Positions 32,914 to 41,926 of a DNA stretch of 64,000 nt are shown piece after piece; the stretch's first letter is position 1; every line of letters begins with the position of its first letter. The notes below the pieces were generated by a model. That model did not search any database and was not told the origin of the DNA. It saw only the letters and a list, made by a program, of their open reading frames with translations. The DNA comes from Escherichia phage EcS1: sequence record NC_055721.1. One strand, 5' to 3'. The position numbers and the translations under genes are program-made.

Positions 32914-33108
32914 TTAAGCTGCAGATATTGGCAATAACGTACGATAGACTTCAAAATACGGTGCTTTTTCATATGAGTCTAAAGTGTTATCTCTGAATTC
33001 ACGATAAGCAGTCATATCAAAAAAATCAAGAATAATTTGAGAACAAGAGGTGGAAACATCTCCACCTTCTTTACGAGCGATAACAACTGTTTCTAAGTAA
33101 GCTTTCAT
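32914..33108 (-). CDS. Hypothetical small protein
   Basis: 64 aa ORF overlapping ligase stop by 4 nt. Confidence 0.35.
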   Translation of the reverse strand: MKAYLETVVIARKEGGDVSTSCSQIILDFFDMTAYREFRDNTLDSYEKAPYFEVYRTLLPISAA

Positions 33109-34619
33109 TTTATACCTGTTGTTTCAGTGAAATTACCAAACACTTCGTCAAAGGTATCAGCTTTAGTTTTATCAAAACGGAAGCCTTTAATAATCGGTAA
33201 GAAGATACCAACAGTACCATCTTTACGACCTTCAGACGTTACCCAACCATTACATTCGCAGTCAGCAATACGTCCTACTAATTTACCTTCACGAGCCAGT
33301 TTCATTAGATATTCACGGTCCATCTCGTTACGAGCTTCGATTGGAATATCTACCCAGTCTTTTGTCTTCTTATCACGAACTCTTGTTGTGTCAGTAAAAC
33401 CAGAACCACAATCAGATGTAATACGTCCACACGCAGAACGAAGACGAACACCACCTAATTTGTTAGGCTCTTTAGAGTGCTCATAGTAATCTACTATTTC
33501 AAGAGCAATATCAATTACTTCTTTGAACTTAACTAAGTTCTTAGAGCGCTTGTTTTCCCAATAAGAACCCATGTTCTTCAGGATAATACCTTCAAGCTTC
33601 ATATCTACATAACGTTTGTAGATTTTAGCTGCTTCGTCAAGATTATTAACCCAATGGTTCTCAATCAGAATAACAGAATCAAAGCCATGTAATACTAGAG
33701 CTTCATTAATCATTAACTCAAGAGCTTTGAAACGTACGTCGTATTTGAAGCCTTTAATCTGACCTTCAGAATAAACTTCATCAAGTGGAACAAGGTCCCA
33801 AACCTGGAACTTCATGCCAGCAGCTTCATCAGAAGTAATAGAACCCTTTAGAGATTTATTTGCTAGCCCATTAGAAGTACTACGGTCGACAACGGCTTCA
33901 TCTGTTTCTTCATCACCAAATAAGAAGTCAAGAGATGTGTCAGAAGATTTTTTAGCCGGAGCATGATAAACTAACTCACCATCTACCATTACGCCATTAG
34001 GATGTTTCAGGCGTTCGTCTTTAGTCATAATCATCAGCTCACGAGCAAGCTTATTAAGACCTTGATATTCATTACCTGCACGACTAAAGAAAGTGACACC
34101 TTCATCACGAACTTCAGCGAAACAACGCGCACCATCAGCTTTTAATTGAGCATAAGCAGGGAACTTGATATGCTTTTTAATGAGCTTTTCATCATAAGCT
34201 GAAGCCAACATTTGCGGCTGTTCTGGAATTAAATTCTTCCAGACTTTATTCGCAATAGTAGGACCAGCACCACATTCAAGGTCACGCATCATTACGCGCC
34301 GCAATACTTCTTCTTCGCCTGGTTCTTTAAATTGAATATCACTAATAAGCATACCCAATTGACGGATAGCTTCATGACCACTGAATACTCGAGTAGCTAA
34401 TTTAGTTTCAATGAAATCTAATGCGTCTGCTAAACTACGCGAGCCACGACATTCAATAACGTCAGGCCACTTTTTGATACCATAGTTGAATCGTTTAGAA
34501 TAAGCCATCAAGAATACACGACGCAAGAGGTCATTATCTTTATTTGCTTCAATGATAGCTTGTTTTTCTTTAGTTGAATCAGTTGCTTTAACTTTATTGA
34601 GGATTGCTAAAATACTCAT
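33105..34619 (-). CDS. 30: ATP-dependent DNA ligase gp30
   Basis: 504 aa; VMMRDLECGA, IPEQPQMLAS, FPAYAQLKADGARCFAEVR, EGIILKN, KFKEVIDV match recalled T4 ligase. Confidence 0.95.
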   Translation of the reverse strand: MSILAILNKVKATDSTKEKQAIIEANKDNDLLRRVFLMAYSKRFNYGIKKWPDVIECRGSRSLADALDFIETKLATRVFSGHEAIRQLGMLISDIQFKEPGEEEVLRRVMMRDLECGAGPTIANKVWKNLIPEQPQMLASAYDEKLIKKHIKFPAYAQLKADGARCFAEVRDEGVTFFSRAGNEYQGLNKLARELMIMTKDERLKHPNGVMVDGELVYHAPAKKSSDTSLDFLFGDEETDEAVVDRSTSNGLANKSLKGSITSDEAAGMKFQVWDLVPLDEVYSEGQIKGFKYDVRFKALELMINEALVLHGFDSVILIENHWVNNLDEAAKIYKRYVDMKLEGIILKNMGSYWENKRSKNLVKFKEVIDIALEIVDYYEHSKEPNKLGGVRLRSACGRITSDCGSGFTDTTRVRDKKTKDWVDIPIEARNEMDREYLMKLAREGKLVGRIADCECNGWVTSEGRKDGTVGIFLPIIKGFRFDKTKADTFDEVFGNFTETTGIK

Positions 34620-34845
34620 TAAATTCGTCCATCAGTTCGTTGAAGGTTTTGTGATATCTTACCATACCATCGATACTGCAAAGCCATAATTCATTCTGAG
34701 CTACACAGTCTTTGAATATTGGATTCGCCGAATTCGAGAATACATGGCTACCTGTTGCTCTTAAAAACTTAATAGGCGTTTGATAATATTCAGTTTCAAG
34801 AGTATCTTTTTGTAGACAATAATTATGAACGTTAAACATTACCAA
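34594..34845 (-). CDS. Hypothetical protein (30.1-like)
   Basis: 83 aa ORF. Confidence 0.45.
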   Translation of the reverse strand: MVMFNVHNYCLQKDTLETEYYQTPIKFLRATGSHVFSNSANPIFKDCVAQNELWLCSIDGMVRYHKTFNELMDEFNEYFSNPQ

Positions 34846-35678
34846 CGGTCCTTATCAAAAGTATAATGACATTTAAAGGGTCCAATTAATGGTTGAGCAA
34901 AGTCATGATCAACTATTTTAGGATGATTATTCATCCATTCAGCTCGGAGTATAGAATCACCTTTACCAACATAAGACTTTCTTGCTTCTTCCATGATACC
35001 CATTCTCAACATGGCATCTTCCATAGAACTCATGATATCCTTTACGGATTTAGAATTAAGTTCTTTAGCTAGATGTTCCCAATCATTAACAGCGTCATAA
35101 GATTTAAGATTAGGAGCAGTACGTTGACCACGTGGCATGTGATACGAAACAACATCAGTTCCTTCAAATACTTTAACTGCAGATTCGATATGTGAACCAA
35201 GATCGTCTACATAGCAAACAACACGATCACCATATTTTTCTTTTACTTTTTCAAGCAGAACATCTTTTGATTCGTTGAAGTCGCAAACCATGATGTCTTT
35301 AAATGCACCTGGGAACAATGCGTTCAAATTGAATTGTCTATTCAAATGAGCGTCAACACTATTGCCTAATGCAGTCACGGCCACAAAGTCGTATTCTTTC
35401 TTAAGTTCATTAACCCATTTCACAGCATCATCATATGGCGCCAAATAACGAATGAAATCTGAGTTGTTATATTTCAAAAGAAGTTTAACGGCAAACTCTT
35501 CATCACATCCGAAGATTTCACCAGGCGGAACAAACTTATCATCCACTAAAAAGTCTAAAATACCTTCAATAGGCAATTGATACTTCTGAGCGAAATAAGG
35601 CAGACCAGATTGCCATTTAACTAAGATGCCATCAACATCTGTAGCAATTACTTTACGTTCTTTTTTCTGAGTCAGCAC
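34839..35678 (-). CDS. HAD-superfamily-like hydrolase (30.2-like position)
   Basis: 279 aa; N-terminal ATDVDGIL resembles HAD motif I (DxDG), later VCYVDDL resembles motif IV. Confidence 0.55.
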   Translation of the reverse strand: MLTQKKERKVIATDVDGILVKWQSGLPYFAQKYQLPIEGILDFLVDDKFVPPGEIFGCDEEFAVKLLLKYNNSDFIRYLAPYDDAVKWVNELKKEYDFVAVTALGNSVDAHLNRQFNLNALFPGAFKDIMVCDFNESKDVLLEKVKEKYGDRVVCYVDDLGSHIESAVKVFEGTDVVSYHMPRGQRTAPNLKSYDAVNDWEHLAKELNSKSVKDIMSSMEDAMLRMGIMEEARKSYVGKGDSILRAEWMNNHPKIVDHDFAQPLIGPFKCHYTFDKDRW

Positions 35679-35895
35679 GTTTTTGAGCCTCTAAAAAATA
35701 AATAGCGAAATTTGTTTTAGGGAAAGGATTGTTAGGAGCCGCAATCAATGATATCTCACCAAGAGCAAATCCACCTTTAATAGGCATAGTTACTTTTGGC
35801 CACACTAATGATGGCCAAGGATTAGGCATCATATTGCACCTCAAATACACCATAATTTGAAATGGCAACATTGACATGACAATACTCACCTTCAT
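35653..35895 (-). CDS. Hypothetical small protein
   Basis: ORF only. Confidence 0.3.
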   Translation of the reverse strand: MKVSIVMSMLPFQIMVYLRCNMMPNPWPSLVWPKVTMPIKGGFALGEISLIAAPNNPFPKTNFAIYFLEAQKRADSEKRT

Positions 35896-36022
35896 CAGTA
35901 AGAACTAAAGCCATAGCACCATTCGGTGAAACCTTCTCAATTTGATAAAGCTTCCCTTCAGTGAAAAGTTCATCATATGGAGGGAACACACGTTTAGCAA
36001 GCAGGTTCGTAGCAATCATCAT
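35822..36022 (-). CDS. Hypothetical small protein
   Basis: ORF only. Confidence 0.4.
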   Translation of the reverse strand: MMIATNLLAKRVFPPYDELFTEGKLYQIEKVSPNGAMALVLTDEGEYCHVNVAISNYGVFEVQYDA

Positions 36023-36218
36023 TTGCAGCCTTTAAAAGGGTTAATTCTGATTCCATGTGAACAGATTCAGTACCATCTGACCATGAAACTTCATATGCTG
36101 GTTCAACCTTGTATTTCAGGATTCCAGGTGTATACATTATAACCACACCCGGGATAAATCCTGAAATATGCTGAACTGGGGTTCCTAGTTCAAATTTCAC
36201 TTTATAACCTTGACCCAT
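35994..36218 (-). CDS. Hypothetical small protein
   Basis: ORF only. Confidence 0.45.
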   Translation of the reverse strand: MGQGYKVKFELGTPVQHISGFIPGVVIMYTPGILKYKVEPAYEVSWSDGTESVHMESELTLLKAANDDCYEPAC

Positions 36219-36364
36219 TCTGGGAATTCGATGAAATCAGGAGCGTCAATTTCACAAATCATCATACCTGCATTCACAGTAATATTACCTACTTCAATCA
36301 TAGGATTTGATTGAAGGCTTTGTGATAAGCGTTTTGCATCAGAAACTTGCACGAAAAGAATCAT
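36197..36364 (-). CDS. Small ORF (55 aa), start overlapping upstream stop (TAATG)
   Basis: Hand-translated MILFVQVSDAKRLSQSLQSNPMIEVGNITVNAGMMICEIDAPDFIEFPEWVKVIK; GGGGTGA RBS. Confidence 0.3.
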   Translation of the reverse strand: MILFVQVSDAKRLSQSLQSNPMIEVGNITVNAGMMICEIDAPDFIEFPEWVKVIK

Positions 36365-36813
36365 TATTTCACCCCATAAGAAACGAAAGCTTCGCCAGTC
36401 TTTTTGACCACAATAACTCGTACACCATCAGAAGCATTTCTGAGTTGACTTACCGCAAAGTCTTTAGCTTCTTGTTCAGTAAAAGGACCATTTGGTAGAG
36501 GCAGATTGCTTTTGCTTGTAGGAATAGTGATAGTCCAGAAATCTTGTTCAGTATCAACACGAATAAACTTCTTAGATATTTCATTCTGTAAGAACATACA
36601 CCAAACGTTGTCGAACTCGCCTTCATTTGCTTTGAAGGTGCCTTTATCAGTACGAACTGCAATGATGTTTCCATCCTTATCTAGTTCAGCAACTTCAAAC
36701 TCACCGAAACCTATTAAACGTTTCCATGCAGAAGCAAAGCCTGCACTACGGTCTTCCATGAATTGTTTACCAGCTTCAGTCCATTTGTAAACGATTTTTT
36801 CAGACGTCAACAT
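36364..36813 (-). CDS. Hypothetical protein (149 aa; start reassigned to MLTSEK after GAGGA RBS)
   Basis: ORF; the track N-terminus would run through an intercistronic hairpin, so internal ATG at 36813 preferred. Confidence 0.55.
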   Translation of the reverse strand: MLTSEKIVYKWTEAGKQFMEDRSAGFASAWKRLIGFGEFEVAELDKDGNIIAVRTDKGTFKANEGEFDNVWCMFLQNEISKKFIRVDTEQDFWTITIPTSKSNLPLPNGPFTEQEAKDFAVSQLRNASDGVRVIVVKKTGEAFVSYGVK

Positions 36814-36831
36814 AACAATTTCCTCAGAGTA

Positions 36832-36845
36832 GGGCCCGAAGGCCC
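36832..36845 (-). other. Intercistronic hairpin GGGCC-CGAA-GGCCC followed by GAGGA RBS module
   Basis: Same module as 37797-37813. Confidence 0.6.
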
Positions 36846-36853
36846 ATTTTAGA

Positions 36854-37216
36854 TTAGATAGTGAATTCAGATGAAACGATATCCCATAATGCTTCACGCT
36901 GCTCATCAGTAGTTTTCATACTTAACACATGACGCAACCATAACTTAACTAACATTTTGCGATTAGAACCGTTCCAAGATGGATGAGTACCTAAATCTCG
37001 AGTACGAACATCATCATGAAAACCAACTTTAATTACTGAACCTTTCAAAGAAACATCCAGCGTAATCCCGTTTTCGAAAGCAACATGAACATAGTTATCT
37101 TCCCAATACATGTTGATATCACACACTGTACCGTTTTCATGTTTCCATAAACATACAGTAGAAACATCCCATGCATTAGCTTTAACATATTTACGTTCGA
37201 AGTTTAAGTAGTTCAT
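36854..37216 (-). CDS. Hypothetical protein (about 120 aa; start reassigned downstream of promoter)
   Basis: ORF; promoter -10/-35 lie inside the track N-terminal extension. Confidence 0.5.
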   Translation of the reverse strand: MNYLNFERKYVKANAWDVSTVCLWKHENGTVCDINMYWEDNYVHVAFENGITLDVSLKGSVIKVGFHDDVRTRDLGTHPSWNGSNRKMLVKLWLRHVLSMKTTDEQREALWDIVSSEFTI

Positions 37217-37247
37217 TTTGTTATCCAAGTTTGCTGATTGAGTGTAC

Positions 37248-37276
37248 ATAATACCACACTCAATCAGCGTTGTAAA
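37248..37276 (-). promoter_or_regulatory. Sigma70-like early promoter (TTTACA-17-TATTAT) centred in a 13-bp perfect inverted repeat
   Basis: Hexamers on minus strand; IR arms 37233-37245 and 37256-37268. Confidence 0.45.
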
Positions 37277-37279
37277 CAC

Positions 37280-37783
37280 TTAGAACGAACTTTTTACTAC
37301 TTGTGGTTCTTTAACGAGTTTGAAACGAGAAATGCCTTTAAAAACAATAACTTCATCATAAGTATTTTCATGAAGCCATGCTGCAGCCCACTCTTCTGCT
37401 TGTTTTTCGCTCAAGTTTTTCGCACGAATCAAGAAATCGGTATCTTCTTCTCTAGCAACAAGACAACCATAGTCTAAATCTTCTAGAACTGGTTCAACTT
37501 CTTTTTCTGGCTCGTAGTCTTTAACTTCTGTGAAGTACTGGTATTCGTTTCCATAAATCCAGCAATCACCATACCCTTGTCTTGAGAACTGTCCAAGTTC
37601 ATCTAAACGATAAAGCTCTTTCTTACCATCAAAGCTGATTTTTAGAACATCAGTGTTATTAACTAGTTCAGTAATCATAAACGGTTTATTGCTGAGATAG
37701 TTTGCAACTGCAGTATTGATAGTAGGCGCTTCTTCAACAAATTCAGCCGCGTCAGCTAGTTTGTACCAGTGGTTTAATTCCAT
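37280..37783 (-). CDS. Hypothetical acidic protein
   Basis: 167 aa ORF with GAGGA RBS and upstream GC hairpin. Confidence 0.6.
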   Translation of the reverse strand: MELNHWYKLADAAEFVEEAPTINTAVANYLSNKPFMITELVNNTDVLKISFDGKKELYRLDELGQFSRQGYGDCWIYGNEYQYFTEVKDYEPEKEVEPVLEDLDYGCLVAREEDTDFLIRAKNLSEKQAEEWAAAWLHENTYDEVIVFKGISRFKLVKEPQVVKSSF

Positions 37784-37796
37784 AATTTCCTCAAAG

Positions 37797-37813
37797 TAGG
37801 GCCCGAAGGCCTA
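37797..37813 (-). other. Intercistronic hairpin (GGGCC-CGAA-GGCC) followed by GAGGA RBS module
   Basis: Same module as 36832-36845. Confidence 0.6.
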
Positions 37814-37817
37814 GTTA

Positions 37818-38171
37818 TTAAGCGATTGTGGTCCAGTTATCTAAATTGATAACACCTTTATCTTTCATTTGTTGAATCAATGCTTCAGCACGAGTACGAC
37901 CATTTTCATACCATGTGCAATCTTCATCATCATAAGTCTCAGAACGAATGCGACCTAAGATGACAGTTTTCAGAACATATTCTTCACCAGTAAACCAGTT
38001 AGTCAAACGAATTTTCCAAGAGAAATCATCTGACTGACCATCAGGAGTCATGCAATAAACCAGTTCAAATTGCTCCATAGATAATCCCCACTGAAGTTCT
38101 TTAACTGATTGAGCTTTGTAGCCATCATGATCTTTGCATTTGATGAAAGCGTTCAGATTAATAGTTTTCAT
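37818..38171 (-). CDS. Hypothetical protein (117 aa; start at MKTINL)
   Basis: ORF; GGAGA RBS; promoter TTTACT-16-TAAGAT upstream. Confidence 0.55.
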   Translation of the reverse strand: MKTINLNAFIKCKDHDGYKAQSVKELQWGLSMEQFELVYCMTPDGQSDDFSWKIRLTNWFTGEEYVLKTVILGRIRSETYDDEDCTWYENGRTRAEALIQQMKDKGVINLDNWTTIA

Positions 38172-38200
38172 TTTATTCTCCATTTGTTGATTGAGTGTAC

Positions 38201-38228
38201 ATCTTAACACAATCCTAGGAGAAGTAAA
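38201..38228 (-). promoter_or_regulatory. Sigma70-like early promoter (TTTACT-16-TAAGAT) sharing 15-bp -10 region with 37236-37250
   Basis: tgattgagtgtacat present at 37236-37250 and 38188-38202. Confidence 0.4.
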
Positions 38229-38232
38229 CACC

Positions 38233-38427
38233 TTATTTTACATGACTGAATTCTACATCAGACCAGATGCCGAAAGGCGGAAGATTAGGTTCTTCTTTAA
38301 AGGCTAACTTTTTGACATCAGTCCAAGGCCAACAGCAAACTTCGTGCTCGTATAACCAGCATGTTCCTTGCAAAGGACTCTCAGGATGCATTTCTATAAT
38401 TTTATAAACCAAAGTTTTCTTGAACAT
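38233..38427 (-). CDS. Hypothetical small protein (64 aa; start at MFKKTL)
   Basis: ORF; track N-terminal extension spans a terminator hairpin so internal start preferred. Confidence 0.45.
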   Translation of the reverse strand: MFKKTLVYKIIEMHPESPLQGTCWLYEHEVCCWPWTDVKKLAFKEEPNLPPFGIWSDVEFSHVK

Positions 38428-38439
38428 ATTCACCTCATA

Positions 38440-38470
38440 CAGATACAAAAATGGGAGACCGAAGTCTCCC
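38440..38470 (-). terminator. Minus-strand terminator (GGGAGAC-TTCG-GTCTCCC + ATTTTTGT) after small basic ORF
   Basis: Same 32-nt module as at 56268-56297. Confidence 0.75.
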
Positions 38471-38475
38471 ATAAC

Positions 38476-40048: not shown

Positions 40049-40600
40049 TTATTCGATTCCACAAAAGTTTTCAATTCGATTCCAGTCAAGAGACTTCAAA
40101 TTAGTACGAGAATATTCGATGACTTCAAGACCTGAATCACGTAAGATGTCATCCCAATTATCAGGAGAACGATCATATTTTTCAGCATAAACAACTTTCT
40201 TAATACCTGACTGAGCAATAGCTTTAGAACAATCAGGACAAGGAGAAGCTGTTACGTACATCGTGGCGCCATCAATAGACGAGCCATTACGAGCAGCAAA
40301 CAAAATAGCATTCAATTCAGCATGGATTTCATTACGAGCAGACCAAGAACTATGGGCTACTCGATGTTCTGCTTTAAGACCTACTCGATGATGGCGTTCA
40401 CCTGGAATAAGTTTACCTTTACCTAACCAACCTTGTTCTGCAGCATGGTCACAACAGTTTACACCACCAGATGGAGTGCCATTATAGCCAGTAGAAATGA
40501 TGCGACCATTCTTTTCAATGACCGCACCTACCTTCCAAGAACAACATTTAGATTCTTGAGAAATCAGATATGCAATCTGAAGATAAGTGCTAGATTTCAT
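40049..40600 (-). CDS. cd: dCMP deaminase
   Basis: 183 aa; zinc-binding HAELNAI and PCPDC motifs. Confidence 0.9.
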   Translation of the reverse strand: MKSSTYLQIAYLISQESKCCSWKVGAVIEKNGRIISTGYNGTPSGGVNCCDHAAEQGWLGKGKLIPGERHHRVGLKAEHRVAHSSWSARNEIHAELNAILFAARNGSSIDGATMYVTASPCPDCSKAIAQSGIKKVVYAEKYDRSPDNWDDILRDSGLEVIEYSRTNLKSLDWNRIENFCGIE

Positions 40601-40944
40601 TAAATCACCAAGTAAGTTGAGCGTTTAGTAGAAACCAATTTTAGTCCTTCAATTGGTTCGACAATATTCTTTACAGTACCAATTGTGATGAATTCTGCAT
40701 CTTTAAAACGATTCTTTTTATCGTTAAAGACTGTACCCATGTATTGGTAACCTAATTCTACGCCATGATTGTTTACAGCAATCAATACTGCATCATATTC
40801 TTCATCAGGGACCATTGAGACTGCGTGGTCCATACGCAGTTCGGTTAACACTTCATCGATGCCTTTTTGAGATACTTCACCACGTATACCAATCAAGTTC
40901 GCACGAAGAATTTTATCAATCTTTTCTTTTAGCATATTGATCAA
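40600..40944 (-). CDS. Hypothetical protein downstream of DAHP synthase
   Basis: 114 aa ORF; overlaps DAHP synthase 3-prime end. Confidence 0.5.
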   Translation of the reverse strand: MINMLKEKIDKILRANLIGIRGEVSQKGIDEVLTELRMDHAVSMVPDEEYDAVLIAVNNHGVELGYQYMGTVFNDKKNRFKDAEFITIGTVKNIVEPIEGLKLVSTKRSTYLVI

Positions 40945-41926
40945 TCTCTGTTAGAGTTTTAACTGTTTGTTCCCAGCCGATGCAAGCATCAGTCACTGAA
41001 ACACCATACTTCATGTCACGAGAAATTTTCTGAGAACCTTCGTTCAGATGAGATTCTATCATAAAACCTTTAACTAATTGGAAACCTGCTTTCAATACTT
41101 CTTTAGCTACGCCTGGTTGACGCGTGAAGTCTTTTTCACTGTTCGAGTGTGAGCAGTCAACCATAACTGATTGGTTCACACCTGCGTGATACAGGTCGTC
41201 TAAGACATCAACAATATCGTCTTCATGATAGTTAGGACCCTTATCACCGCCACGTAGAACGATGTGAGTGTTCTTATTGCCTACGGCATGAACGATACCT
41301 ACGTTTCCGTTGTTATCCATACCTAAGTAACGGTGTGGGAACGCAGCAGATTTCATAGCATCAATAGCTACTTGAGCAGAACCATTTGTTCCATTCTTGA
41401 AGCCAACACACATAGGCAGACCTGAAGCGATTTCACGGTGTGTCTGTGATTCAGTCGTACGAGCGCCGATAGCAACCCATGAGAAAATACCACTAAGATA
41501 CTTAATCGTGAATGGGTCAAGCACTTCAGTCGCTAATGGAAGGCCAATATCTAAAAGGTCTAAACATAAACGACGAGCACAATGAAGACCATAGTTCAAG
41601 TCAAATGTGTCGTTCAAATGTGGGTCATTTACATAACCTTTCCAACCTACAGTCGTACGAGGCTTTTCAAAATAAACACGCATAACTAACAATACGTCAG
41701 GCAATTGTTTTTGCAATTCAGCCAGACGTTGGCCATATTCTAAAGCAGCTTTAGGGTCATGAATAGAACATGGACCCACTACAACAAGCTTACGATGGTT
41801 TTCGCCACACATAATGCGATTAACTTCTTCGCGATGTTTTTCTACTTGTTCTTTATGTCCTGCATGAAATGGAAGTTCACGAGCAAGTTCATTAGGCGAA
41901 TACAACTGTTCTACAACCAAATTCAT
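40916..41926 (-). CDS. 3-deoxy-D-arabino-heptulosonate-7-phosphate (DAHP) synthase, class I AroG/AroF/AroH-like
   Basis: 336 aa; collinear with recalled E. coli AroG: LVVVGPCSIHDP, LLVMRVYFEKPRTTVGWKG, NDPH, WVAIGARTTESQTHREIASGL, VGFKNGTNG, IVLRGG, VMVDCSHSNS, GFMIESHLNEG, SVTDACIGWE. Confidence 0.9.
   Translation of the reverse strand: MNLVVEQLYSPNELARELPFHAGHKEQVEKHREEVNRIMCGENHRKLVVVGPCSIHDPKAALEYGQRLAELQKQLPDVLLVMRVYFEKPRTTVGWKGYVNDPHLNDTFDLNYGLHCARRLCLDLLDIGLPLATEVLDPFTIKYLSGIFSWVAIGARTTESQTHREIASGLPMCVGFKNGTNGSAQVAIDAMKSAAFPHRYLGMDNNGNVGIVHAVGNKNTHIVLRGGDKGPNYHEDDIVDVLDDLYHAGVNQSVMVDCSHSNSEKDFTRQPGVAKEVLKAGFQLVKGFMIESHLNEGSQKISRDMKYGVSVTDACIGWEQTVKTLTEIDQYAKRKD

What the first reader, a model, noticed from the sequence alone, without database searches (positions are those of the whole stretch)
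34839..35678. HAD-superfamily-like hydrolase next to DNA ligase
The 279-aa ORF has an N-terminal DVDG motif (ATDVDGILV) and a later VCYVDDL, consistent with HAD phosphatase/phosphomutase motifs I and IV. This suggests a nucleotide or sugar-phosphate phosphatase in the early region.
Basis: inference. Interest (0 to 1): 0.35.

Follow-up and report, generated by a model that had tools for sequence, protein, structure and literature searches.

The report
T4 gene 30.2-type HAD nucleotidase-like phosphatase
The ORF is the counterpart of phage T4's uncharacterised gene 30.2 and is almost certainly a magnesium-dependent HAD-family phosphatase most like cellular 5'(3')-deoxyribonucleotidases, which is an ordinary though biochemically untested phage enzyme.

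Summary
**Observation: confirmed.** A 279-aa ORF lies on the minus strand at 34839..35678. It has a GTG start and a GAGG Shine-Dalgarno. ATDVDGILV is residues 12-20 and VCYVDDL is residues 154-160.

**Source.** The window is Escherichia phage EcS1, a T4-like phage. The ORF is the orthologue of T-even gene 30.2, in conserved order 30.2 - 30.1 - DNA ligase - alt.1 - alt.

**HAD superfamily: supported.**
- Pfam finds nothing on the single sequence.
- All four HAD motifs are fixed in 90 diverse homologues: D14, D16, T/S102, K138, D/E158, D159.
- A family profile hits PDB 3bwv, a putative 5'(3')-deoxyribonucleotidase, at E = 5.8e-7.
- 29 of 89 distant relatives hit Pfam NT5C.
- hhalign against mouse cdN gives 94% probability across motif I, the cap and motif II.

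**Most likely function.** An Asp14-phosphoenzyme, Mg2+-dependent phosphatase with a helical C1 cap, probably acting on (deoxy)nucleoside monophosphates. The substrate and biological role are inferred, not shown.

**Open points.** The variable C-terminal tail (about residues 205-279) is unexplained.

**Novelty.** Low. Some GenBank records already label homologues as deoxyribonucleotidase or HAD hydrolase.

The parts
34839..35678 (-). Complete CDS (279 aa plus stop), the orthologue of T-even gene 30.2. In EcS1 it is KNT65_gp227 / UniProt A0A2Z5ZCR2.
   Evidence: ORF list. 100% identity to the EcS1 protein (BFVD hit). PHROG_420 at 2.9e-65. Gene 30.2 of phage PP01 is also 279 aa and lies in the same gene order.
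35688..35691 (-). Shine-Dalgarno GAGG, 9 nt upstream of the GTG start codon (35678-35676).
   Evidence: Read directly from the sequence. An in-frame TAG four codons upstream excludes a longer N-terminus.
35079..35654 (-). HAD core plus cap domain (about residues 9-200). Catalytic codons: D14 35639-35637, D16 35633-35631, T102 35375-35373, K138 35267-35265, D158 35207-35205, D159 35204-35202.
35403..35621 (-). Alpha-helical C1 cap (about residues 20-92) inserted after motif I. It carries the conserved residues W22, F49, F56, Y70 and S73.
   Evidence: Helices 22-32, 38-46, 52-56, 60-71 and 74-78 lie between strand 1 and strand 2. The cap aligns with the mouse cdN cap at 94% hhalign probability (HMM alignment). 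Position 22 is aromatic in 90/90 sequences and position 70 is Y/F in 89/90.
34842..35066 (-). Variable C-terminal extension (about residues 205-279). It is predicted helical to about residue 251 and disordered after that. Its function is unknown.
   Evidence: pLDDT falls from 88 to 44 across it. It is absent from many homologues of about 200 aa and poorly alignable in the rest. No family hit covers it.
34837..34841 (-). TAATG overlap between the 30.2 stop codon and the ATG of the downstream 30.1-like ORF, which suggests translational coupling.
   Evidence: Read from the sequence. The downstream ORF hits PHROG_2054. Its counterpart in LC53 is annotated DUF3045.

Best explanation
The ORF encodes a soluble, Mg2+-dependent phosphomonoesterase of the HAD superfamily. 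It belongs to a divergent, phage-borne branch closest to the NT5C / 5'(3')-deoxyribonucleotidase family.

**Proposed mechanism (inferred from the family).**
- Asp14 attacks the substrate phosphate to form an aspartyl-phosphate intermediate.
- Asp16 acts as general acid/base.
- Thr102, Lys138 and probably the invariant Arg114 hold the phosphate.
- Asp158 and Asp159 hold Mg2+.
- A four- to five-helix C1 cap closes over the site. Its conserved aromatic residues W22, F49 and Y70 form the pocket for the leaving group.

**Proposed substrate and role (inferred, not shown).** The leaving group is most likely a (deoxy)nucleoside, so the enzyme would convert (d)NMPs to nucleosides plus phosphate. In a T4-like infection it would trim or sanitise the dNMP pool produced by host-DNA breakdown, possibly as a substrate cycle with phage thymidine kinase.
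For: - **Motifs.** All four HAD motifs are invariant in 90 homologues at 21-38% identity to the query.
- **Model.** AlphaFold gives pLDDT 87.6, with the core above 90, and the motifs lie at canonical strand ends.
- **Sequence links.** The family profile hits 3bwv at E = 5.8e-7 over the full length. Pfam NT5C is the family most often hit by distant relatives, 29 of 89, best 4.2e-10. hhalign against mouse cdN gives 94% probability and aligns W22, F49 and Y70 with cdN aromatic residues.
- **Phosphatase rather than dehalogenase.** D16 (the D+2 Asp) and the DD motif IV mark a phosphoryl-transfer enzyme (established HAD knowledge).
- **Independent annotations.** An HHpred-based annotation of the LC53 homologue reads 5'(3')-deoxyribonucleotidase.
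- **Phage precedent.** PBS1 Dtm is an mdN-like phage dTMP phosphatase with only 16% identity to mdN, and its activity was shown biochemically (PMC12697855).
Against: - The query itself hits no Pfam model, including NT5C.
- hhalign of the close-family profile against the single 3bwv sequence is weak (probability 7.8%).
- The base-stacking roles of the cdN/mdN aromatic residues, and of mdN Lys143 as the counterpart of R114, come from memory of the crystal-structure papers. They were not checked on coordinates here.
- No literature on gp30.2 was found.
- A dNMP-destroying enzyme looks counter-productive for a phage that salvages host dNMPs.
Confidence: 0.6

Rival explanations
1. It is a HAD phosphatase or phosphomutase, but its substrate is a non-nucleotide small molecule such as a sugar phosphate, phosphoglycolate or a cofactor phosphate.
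Against: The only sequence-level links specific to a subfamily point to NT5C, 3bwv and cdN, including the cap that determines specificity. No sugar-metabolism gene is consistently adjacent. The family occurs in T4-likes with very different DNA sugar modifications, and in KVP40-like Vibrio phages.
Confidence: 0.25
2. It is a nucleic-acid end-processing 3'-phosphatase, like the phosphatase domain of T4 Pnkp, that prepares nicks for the neighbouring DNA ligase.
For: Linkage to the DNA ligase gene is conserved even in a Vibrio schizo-T4 phage whose homologue is only 30% identical. There are weak hits to PHROG_415 polynucleotide kinase (E = 0.022; 5e-4 for the fusion P0168). One relative hits HAD_PNKP. 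One homologue is fused to a domain matching a PHROG annotated 'DNA polymerase'.
Against: The protein has a full C1 helical cap. In HAD enzymes such a cap normally encloses small substrates, whereas Pnkp-type phosphatases are capless (established HAD knowledge). Gene order in this region is conserved across T4-likes generally, so linkage is weak evidence. The PNK hits are far weaker than the NT5C links.
Confidence: 0.07
3. It is not a phosphatase at all. It could be a dehalogenase-type hydrolase, or a catalytically inert HAD-fold protein that works by binding, for example through its C-terminal tail.
Against: The D+2 aspartate (D16), K138 and the Mg2+-binding D158/D159 are 100% conserved over 90 diverged sequences. 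That is the signature of active phosphotransferases. Dehalogenases lack the second Asp and the metal site (established knowledge). Many homologues lack the tail entirely.
Confidence: 0.04

Closest known systems
Mammalian cytosolic and mitochondrial 5'(3')-deoxyribonucleotidases (cdN/NT5C, mdN/NT5M; Pfam PF06941)
   Same: - HAD core with a helical C1 cap.
- Motif I is DxDGV/I-L, followed eight residues after the nucleophile by an aromatic residue and S-G-L: 'DVDGILVKWQSGL' here against 'DMDGVLADFESGL' in cdN.
- The cap aligns at 94% hhalign probability. W22, F49 and Y70 fall opposite cdN aromatic residues.
   Different: - Only about 14-27% identity.
- The query fails the Pfam NT5C model.
- It has an invariant R114/N117 ('LNRxFNL') where the NT5C relative aligned here (3bwv) has DKYEWL and cdN/mdN, from memory, K..W.
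- It carries a 75-aa variable C-terminal tail.
- It is encoded by a phage.
PDB 3bwv, putative 5'(3')-deoxyribonucleotidase of Staphylococcus epidermidis (a bacterial NT5C-family protein)
   Different: It is itself biochemically uncharacterised. It has Thr instead of an aromatic residue at the W22 position (alignment). It is shorter (180 aa) and has no tail.
Bacillus phage PBS1 Dtm (dTMP phosphatase, A0A223LEB8)
   Same: A phage-encoded, highly diverged mdN-like HAD enzyme that was recognised only by structure prediction and then shown to be an Mg2+-dependent dNMP phosphatase (PMC12697855). It is the best functional precedent.
   Different: Its role, excluding dT from dU-DNA, is tied to a DNA modification that T4-like phages do not have. 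It was not compared directly with gp30.2 here.
T4 gene 30.2 product (PHROG_420; '32.4 kDa protein in the Gp30-rIII intergenic region')
   Same: Orthologue: about 50% identity over residues 8-219, the same 279-aa length in PP01 and T-even phages, and the same position between 30.3 and 30.1/ligase.
   Different: Nothing functional is known about it. The C-terminal tails differ: the T-even tails end in a GG(I/V)EYL..(Q/R)PT motif that EcS1 lacks.
T4 Pnkp phosphatase domain (HAD_PNKP)
   Same: A HAD phosphatase of a T4-type phage with the same DxDxT-type chemistry. There are weak profile cross-hits.
   Different: Pnkp is capless, is fused to a kinase and acts on polynucleotide 3' ends. gp30.2 has a C1 cap and no kinase domain.

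Membership tests
HAD superfamily | Motif I, DxDx(T/V), at the C-terminal end of strand 1 (nucleophile Asp plus D+2 acid/base) | tested here: met
   The sequence is D14-V-D16-G-I. D14 and D16 are 90/90 conserved. D14 ends strand 9-14 in the model.
HAD superfamily | Motif II, Ser/Thr at the end of strand 2 | tested here: met
   T102 is T in 81 and S in 9 of 90 sequences. It lies at the end of strand 96-103.
HAD superfamily | Motif III, conserved Lys/Arg before strand 4 | tested here: met
   K138 is 90/90 conserved. It lies immediately before helix 139-152, which leads into strand 153-158.
HAD superfamily | Motif IV, acidic pair (DD / DxxxD) at the end of strand 4 that binds Mg2+ | tested here: met
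   D158 is D in 61 and E in 29 of 90 sequences. D159 is 90/90. Strand 153-158 ends here.
HAD superfamily | Rossmannoid HAD fold | tested here: met
HAD superfamily | Significant hit to a curated HAD profile | tested here: inconclusive
   The query alone gives 0 Pfam hits at E<=10. A family profile hits HAD structures (3bwv, 5.8e-7). Relatives hit HAD_2 above its gathering score (30.3 against 23.8 bits), as well as Hydrolase and NT5C.
HAD superfamily | Mg2+-dependent phosphoryl transfer through an aspartyl-phosphate intermediate | not testable with these tools
   This needs an enzyme assay and a D14N control.
NT5C / 5'(3')-deoxyribonucleotidase family (PF06941) | Match to the PF06941 model at its gathering score | tested here: not met
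   The query does not hit PF06941 even at E<=10. Among relatives, 29 of 89 match at E<=0.01, best 4.2e-10. The example P0258 scores 21.4 bits, below the 24.8 cut-off.
NT5C / 5'(3')-deoxyribonucleotidase family (PF06941) | Homologous helical C1 cap carrying the nucleoside-binding aromatic residues | tested here: inconclusive
   hhalign against cdN residues 5-104 gives 94% probability, E = 1.1e-7. W22, F49 and Y70 align with cdN F, F and Y. The stacking role of those cdN residues is recalled from the literature and was not verified on coordinates.
NT5C / 5'(3')-deoxyribonucleotidase family (PF06941) | dNMP (5', 3', 2') phosphatase activity | not testable with these tools
   Biochemical assay required.
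T-even gene 30.2 family (PHROG_420) | Profile match and conserved position 30.3 - 30.2 - 30.1 - 30 (ligase) - alt.1 - alt | tested here: met
   PHROG_420 at 2.9e-65. 1440 phage records carry a match. Gene order matches PP01 and LC53. Neighbours are confirmed as ligase and Alt.
Pnkp-type polynucleotide 3'-phosphatase | Capless (C0) HAD core, usually fused to a P-loop kinase | tested here: not met
   A C1 cap of five helices is present and there is no kinase domain. PHROG_415 scores only E = 0.022.
L-2-haloacid dehalogenase | Nucleophile Asp without the D+2 Asp and without a Mg2+ site | tested here: not met
   D16, D158 and D159 are invariant. The resemblance is at fold level only.

The most novel reading that the evidence does not exclude
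gp30.2 could be a selective 'pool-sanitising' or counter-defence nucleotidase. It would dephosphorylate host-derived modified or unwanted dNMPs released when T-even nucleases digest the chromosome, such as m6-dAMP, 5-methyl-dCMP or dUMP.

This would keep those nucleotides out of phage DNA. It would also erase nucleotide danger signals such as the m6-dAMP that triggers the PUA-Cal-HAD defence (PMC12871103). The variable C-terminal tail would dock it to the phage dNTP-synthesis or replication machinery.

Nothing here excludes this reading. However, T2, a close relative of T4 that very probably also carries 30.2, is restricted by PUA-Cal-HAD in that paper, which argues against an efficient anti-signal role.
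Probability: 0.07. Interest if true: 0.7.

Novelty: new member of a known kind. Interest (0 to 1): 0.25.

Why it matters
Gene 30.2 is conserved in well over a thousand T4-like phage genomes. It is still filed as 'unknown function' in PHROGs and is invisible to Pfam.

Assigning it to the NT5C-like HAD phosphatases gives a concrete hypothesis that can be tested cheaply, and it would let annotation pipelines label a large family. A phage enzyme that destroys dNMPs while the phage is salvaging them would be a small but real puzzle in T4 nucleotide metabolism. Possible explanations are a substrate cycle, pool sanitation or signal removal.

It is not a new kind of system. The fold, chemistry and likely substrate class are all familiar, and some genome records already carry this annotation.

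Tried and rejected
- **Single-sequence searches.** Pfam and NCBIfam returned nothing useful. phmmer against PDB gave only noise.
- **Close-family profiles.** The 41-sequence profile against PDB put cdN on top but only at E = 0.38. The relatives from the full-library profile search were needed to reach significance. hhalign of the close-family profile against the single 3bwv sequence was weak (probability 7.8%).
- **Literature.** Searches for 'gp30.2' and for '30.2/30.3/rIII/bacteriophage T4' found nothing. The T4 genome review (PMC150520) is not held. The T4-related genomes review does not mention 30.2. A search to confirm the mdN residue roles found no source.
- **Promoters and terminators.** The scan around the gene gave no more sites than shuffled sequence. 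By eye, I found no convincing MotA-box middle promoter in the 143-bp upstream gap.
- **Distant genomic contexts.** Vibrio phage D51 was uninformative because all neighbours are hypothetical.
- **Fusion partners.** P0213 and P0119 have no recognisable extra domain.
- **Rejected readings.** Dehalogenase is rejected because the D+2 Asp and the metal site are invariant. A Pnkp-like end phosphatase is rejected because a C1 cap is present. The overlapping 80-aa ORF 35653..35895 is not treated as a real gene, because it spans the intergenic gap and the 30.2 start.

Full report
**1. What is in the sequence**

The ORF finder lists a 279-aa ORF at 34839..35678 on the minus strand.

- The start is GTG at 35678. 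An in-frame TAG four codons upstream rules out a longer N-terminus.
- A GAGG Shine-Dalgarno lies 9 nt upstream, at 35691-35688.
- The stop codon overlaps the ATG of the next ORF in a TAATG at 34841-34837. That ORF is an 81-aa 30.1-like protein (PHROG_2054). The DNA ligase follows it at 33105..34619 (PF01068).

**2. Source and orthology**

- The protein is 100% identical to 'hypothetical protein KNT65_gp227' of Escherichia phage EcS1 (BFVD A0A2Z5ZCR2). EcS1 is a T4-like phage of the genus Kagamiyamavirus (PMC10132071).
- tblastn finds a homologue in 1440 phage records, nearly all T4-like.
- In phage PP01 the homologue is gene 30.2, also 279 aa. The order there is 31 - rIII - 30.9...30.3 - 30.2 - 30.1 - 30 (ligase) - alt.1 - alt.
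- The window shows the same order. Alt, ligase and dCMP deaminase were confirmed by Pfam.
- Linkage to the ligase persists in a KVP40-like Vibrio phage whose homologue is only 30% identical.
- The family is PHROG_420, 'unknown function' (2.9e-65).

**3. Is it a HAD enzyme?**

The single sequence hits no Pfam model even at E<=10, nothing relevant in NCBIfam and nothing in PDB by phmmer. Four independent lines overturn it.

*(a) Conservation.*
- In 41 close homologues D14, D16, G17, K138, D158 and D159 are invariant and T102 is T/S.
- I ran a family profile against 1.84 billion cluster representatives. It returned 1220 hits at E<=1e-3.
- I then aligned the query with 89 relatives at only 21-38% identity.
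- In that alignment D14, D16, R114, K138 and D159 are 90/90, position 102 is T/S 90/90 and position 158 is D/E 90/90.

*(b) Structure.*
- AlphaFold2 with the 41-sequence alignment gives mean pLDDT 87.6, with the core above 90.
- The four motifs sit at canonical HAD positions: D14 ends strand 9-14, T102 ends strand 96-103, K138 precedes helix 139-152 and D158 ends strand 153-158.
- Five helices (22-78) are inserted right after strand 1. That is a C1 cap. There is no insertion where a C2 cap would be.
- Foldseek against PDB gives 145 hits at E<=1e-3, and the 50 best shown are all HAD-fold enzymes. The top hit is 3bwv, a deoxyribonucleotidase-like protein, at 2.4e-8. Mouse cdN 2jao scores 1.6e-7.
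- In BFVD the nearest proteins outside the family are phage proteins named 5' nucleotidase, nucleotidase or 5'(3')-deoxyribonucleotidase.

*(c) Profile against PDB.*
- The 90-sequence profile hits 3bwv at E = 5.8e-7 over the full length, with all four motifs aligned.
- Below it come yeast SDT1/SSM1 pyrimidine nucleotidase, MDP-1, XMP phosphatase and cdN/mdN.

*(d) Transitivity to Pfam.*
- Of the 89 relatives, 29 hit NT5C (PF06941, best 4.2e-10), 16 hit Hydrolase and 15 hit HAD_2.
- For example, P0258 passes the HAD_2 gathering score.

**4. Which HAD subfamily?**

Sequence does point one way.
- NT5C is the Pfam family most often hit by relatives.
- 3bwv is the best PDB profile hit.
- hhalign of the close-family profile against mouse cdN residues 5-104 gives 94% probability, E = 1.1e-7, over motif I, the whole cap and motif II.
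- In that alignment 'DVDGILVKWQSGL' pairs with 'DMDGVLADFESGL'. F49 pairs with the F of 'RRGF', and 'KYNNSDFIRYL' pairs with 'VYESPGFFLNL'.
- From my recollection of the cdN and mdN crystal structures (Rinaldo-Matthis 2002; Wallden 2005, 2007, cited in PMC3946280), these three cdN aromatic residues stack on the base of the bound nucleotide. I could not verify this on coordinates.
- Position 22 is aromatic in 90/90 sequences and position 70 is Y/F in 89/90.
- The invariant R114 aligns with the Lys of 'DKYEW' in 3bwv. From memory, that Lys corresponds to the phosphate-binding Lys143 of mdN.

The query still fails PF06941 itself. I therefore describe it as a divergent sister branch that works like NT5C, not as a certified member.

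**5. Mechanism (inferred)**

- D14 is the nucleophile that forms an aspartyl-phosphate.
- D16 is the general acid/base.
- T102, K138 and R114 bind the phosphate.
- D158 and D159 bind Mg2+.
- The cap closes over a small substrate, most likely a (deoxy)nucleoside monophosphate.
- The invariant D+2 Asp and the metal site argue against a dehalogenase. The C1 cap argues against a Pnkp-like polynucleotide 3'-phosphatase, despite the ligase neighbour and weak PHROG_415 and HAD_PNKP cross-hits.
- A phage precedent exists. PBS1 Dtm was recognised only through AlphaFold similarity to mdN at 16% identity and was then shown to be a Mg2+-dependent dTMP phosphatase (PMC12697855).

**6. Biological role (open)**

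T-even phages degrade host DNA to dNMPs for reuse (as summarised in PMC12871103). A dNMP phosphatase therefore looks paradoxical. Three roles are plausible:
- a substrate cycle with phage thymidine kinase, as cdN and mdN form with cellular kinases;
- removal of unwanted or modified host dNMPs;
- removal of nucleotide danger signals such as m6-dAMP.

None of these is tested. The family occurs in T4-likes with different DNA modifications and in KVP40-like phages, so the role is probably not tied to hydroxymethylcytosine.

**7. The C-terminal tail**

- Residues from about 205 to 279 are predicted helical and then disordered, with pLDDT falling to 44.
- The tail is absent from many homologues of about 200 aa and poorly conserved in the rest.
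- T-even versions end in a GG(I/V)EYL..(Q/R)PT motif that EcS1 lacks.
- No family or structure hit covers it. Its function is unexplained.

**8. Prior knowledge and novelty**

- I found no paper on gp30.2.
- Several genome records already label homologues by remote homology:
  - '5'(3')-deoxyribonucleotidase' in LC53, based on HHpred;
  - 'putative phosphatase' in Virsaitis27;
  - 'HAD-superfamily hydrolase' in Morganella phage vB_Mm5;
  - 'haloacid halogenase' in Phynn.
- The in-silico assignment is therefore not new and the enzyme class is ordinary.
- What remains unknown is the substrate, the physiological role and the function of the tail.

**Verdict**

- This is a new (divergent) member of a known kind.
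- Interest is low to moderate (0.25).

Noticed in passing
window 33105..34619 (-), about residues 233-239 of the ligase: The DNA ligase contains an internal 'SLDFLFG'. From memory, this is the same peptide as the clamp-binding C-terminus of T4 DNA polymerase, and T4 ligase has 'GLDFLFD' at the equivalent place. It is probably the known sliding-clamp interaction loop of T4-type ligases.
   Followed up: no
window 40916..41926 (-): A 336-aa DAHP synthase (PF00793, 3.7e-80), the first enzyme of aromatic amino-acid biosynthesis, is encoded in this T4-like phage near dCMP deaminase (40049..40600) and the gene 31 region. It is an auxiliary metabolic gene that T4 itself does not have.
   Followed up: partly
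window 35796..35818 (-): A perfect 7-bp hairpin, TTGGCCA-N9-TGGCCAA, lies immediately after the stop (35822) of the upstream 66-aa ORF, in the 143-bp gap before the 30.2 start. It has no T-run, so it is not a canonical terminator. It may be an RNA-stability or processing element.
   Followed up: no
window 34837..34841 (-): There is a TAATG stop/start overlap between 30.2 and the downstream 30.1-like ORF (PHROG_2054; DUF3045 in the LC53 annotation). This suggests translational coupling.
   Followed up: partly
window 35653..35895 (-): An 80-aa ORF spans the intergenic gap and overlaps the first codons of 30.2. It is probably not a gene. LC53 also has an unannotated gap of about 320 bp upstream of its 30.2 homologue (L001 4118-4438).
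   Followed up: no
proteins P0168, P0163, P0119 and P0213 (metagenomic homologues): Some gp30.2-like domains are fused to other modules. P0168 carries an N-terminal domain matching PHROG_24943 'DNA polymerase' and contains a GDLDI motif. P0163 has a C-terminal region with a 'GRHR' motif that I take, by eye, to be ParB-like. P0119 and P0213 have long unrecognised extensions.
   Followed up: partly
window 35822..38472 (-): A run of eight small ORFs between 30.2 and rIII (the 30.3-30.9 region) all match PHROG families of unknown function. This is typical of the hyperplastic early regions of T4-like genomes.
   Followed up: partly
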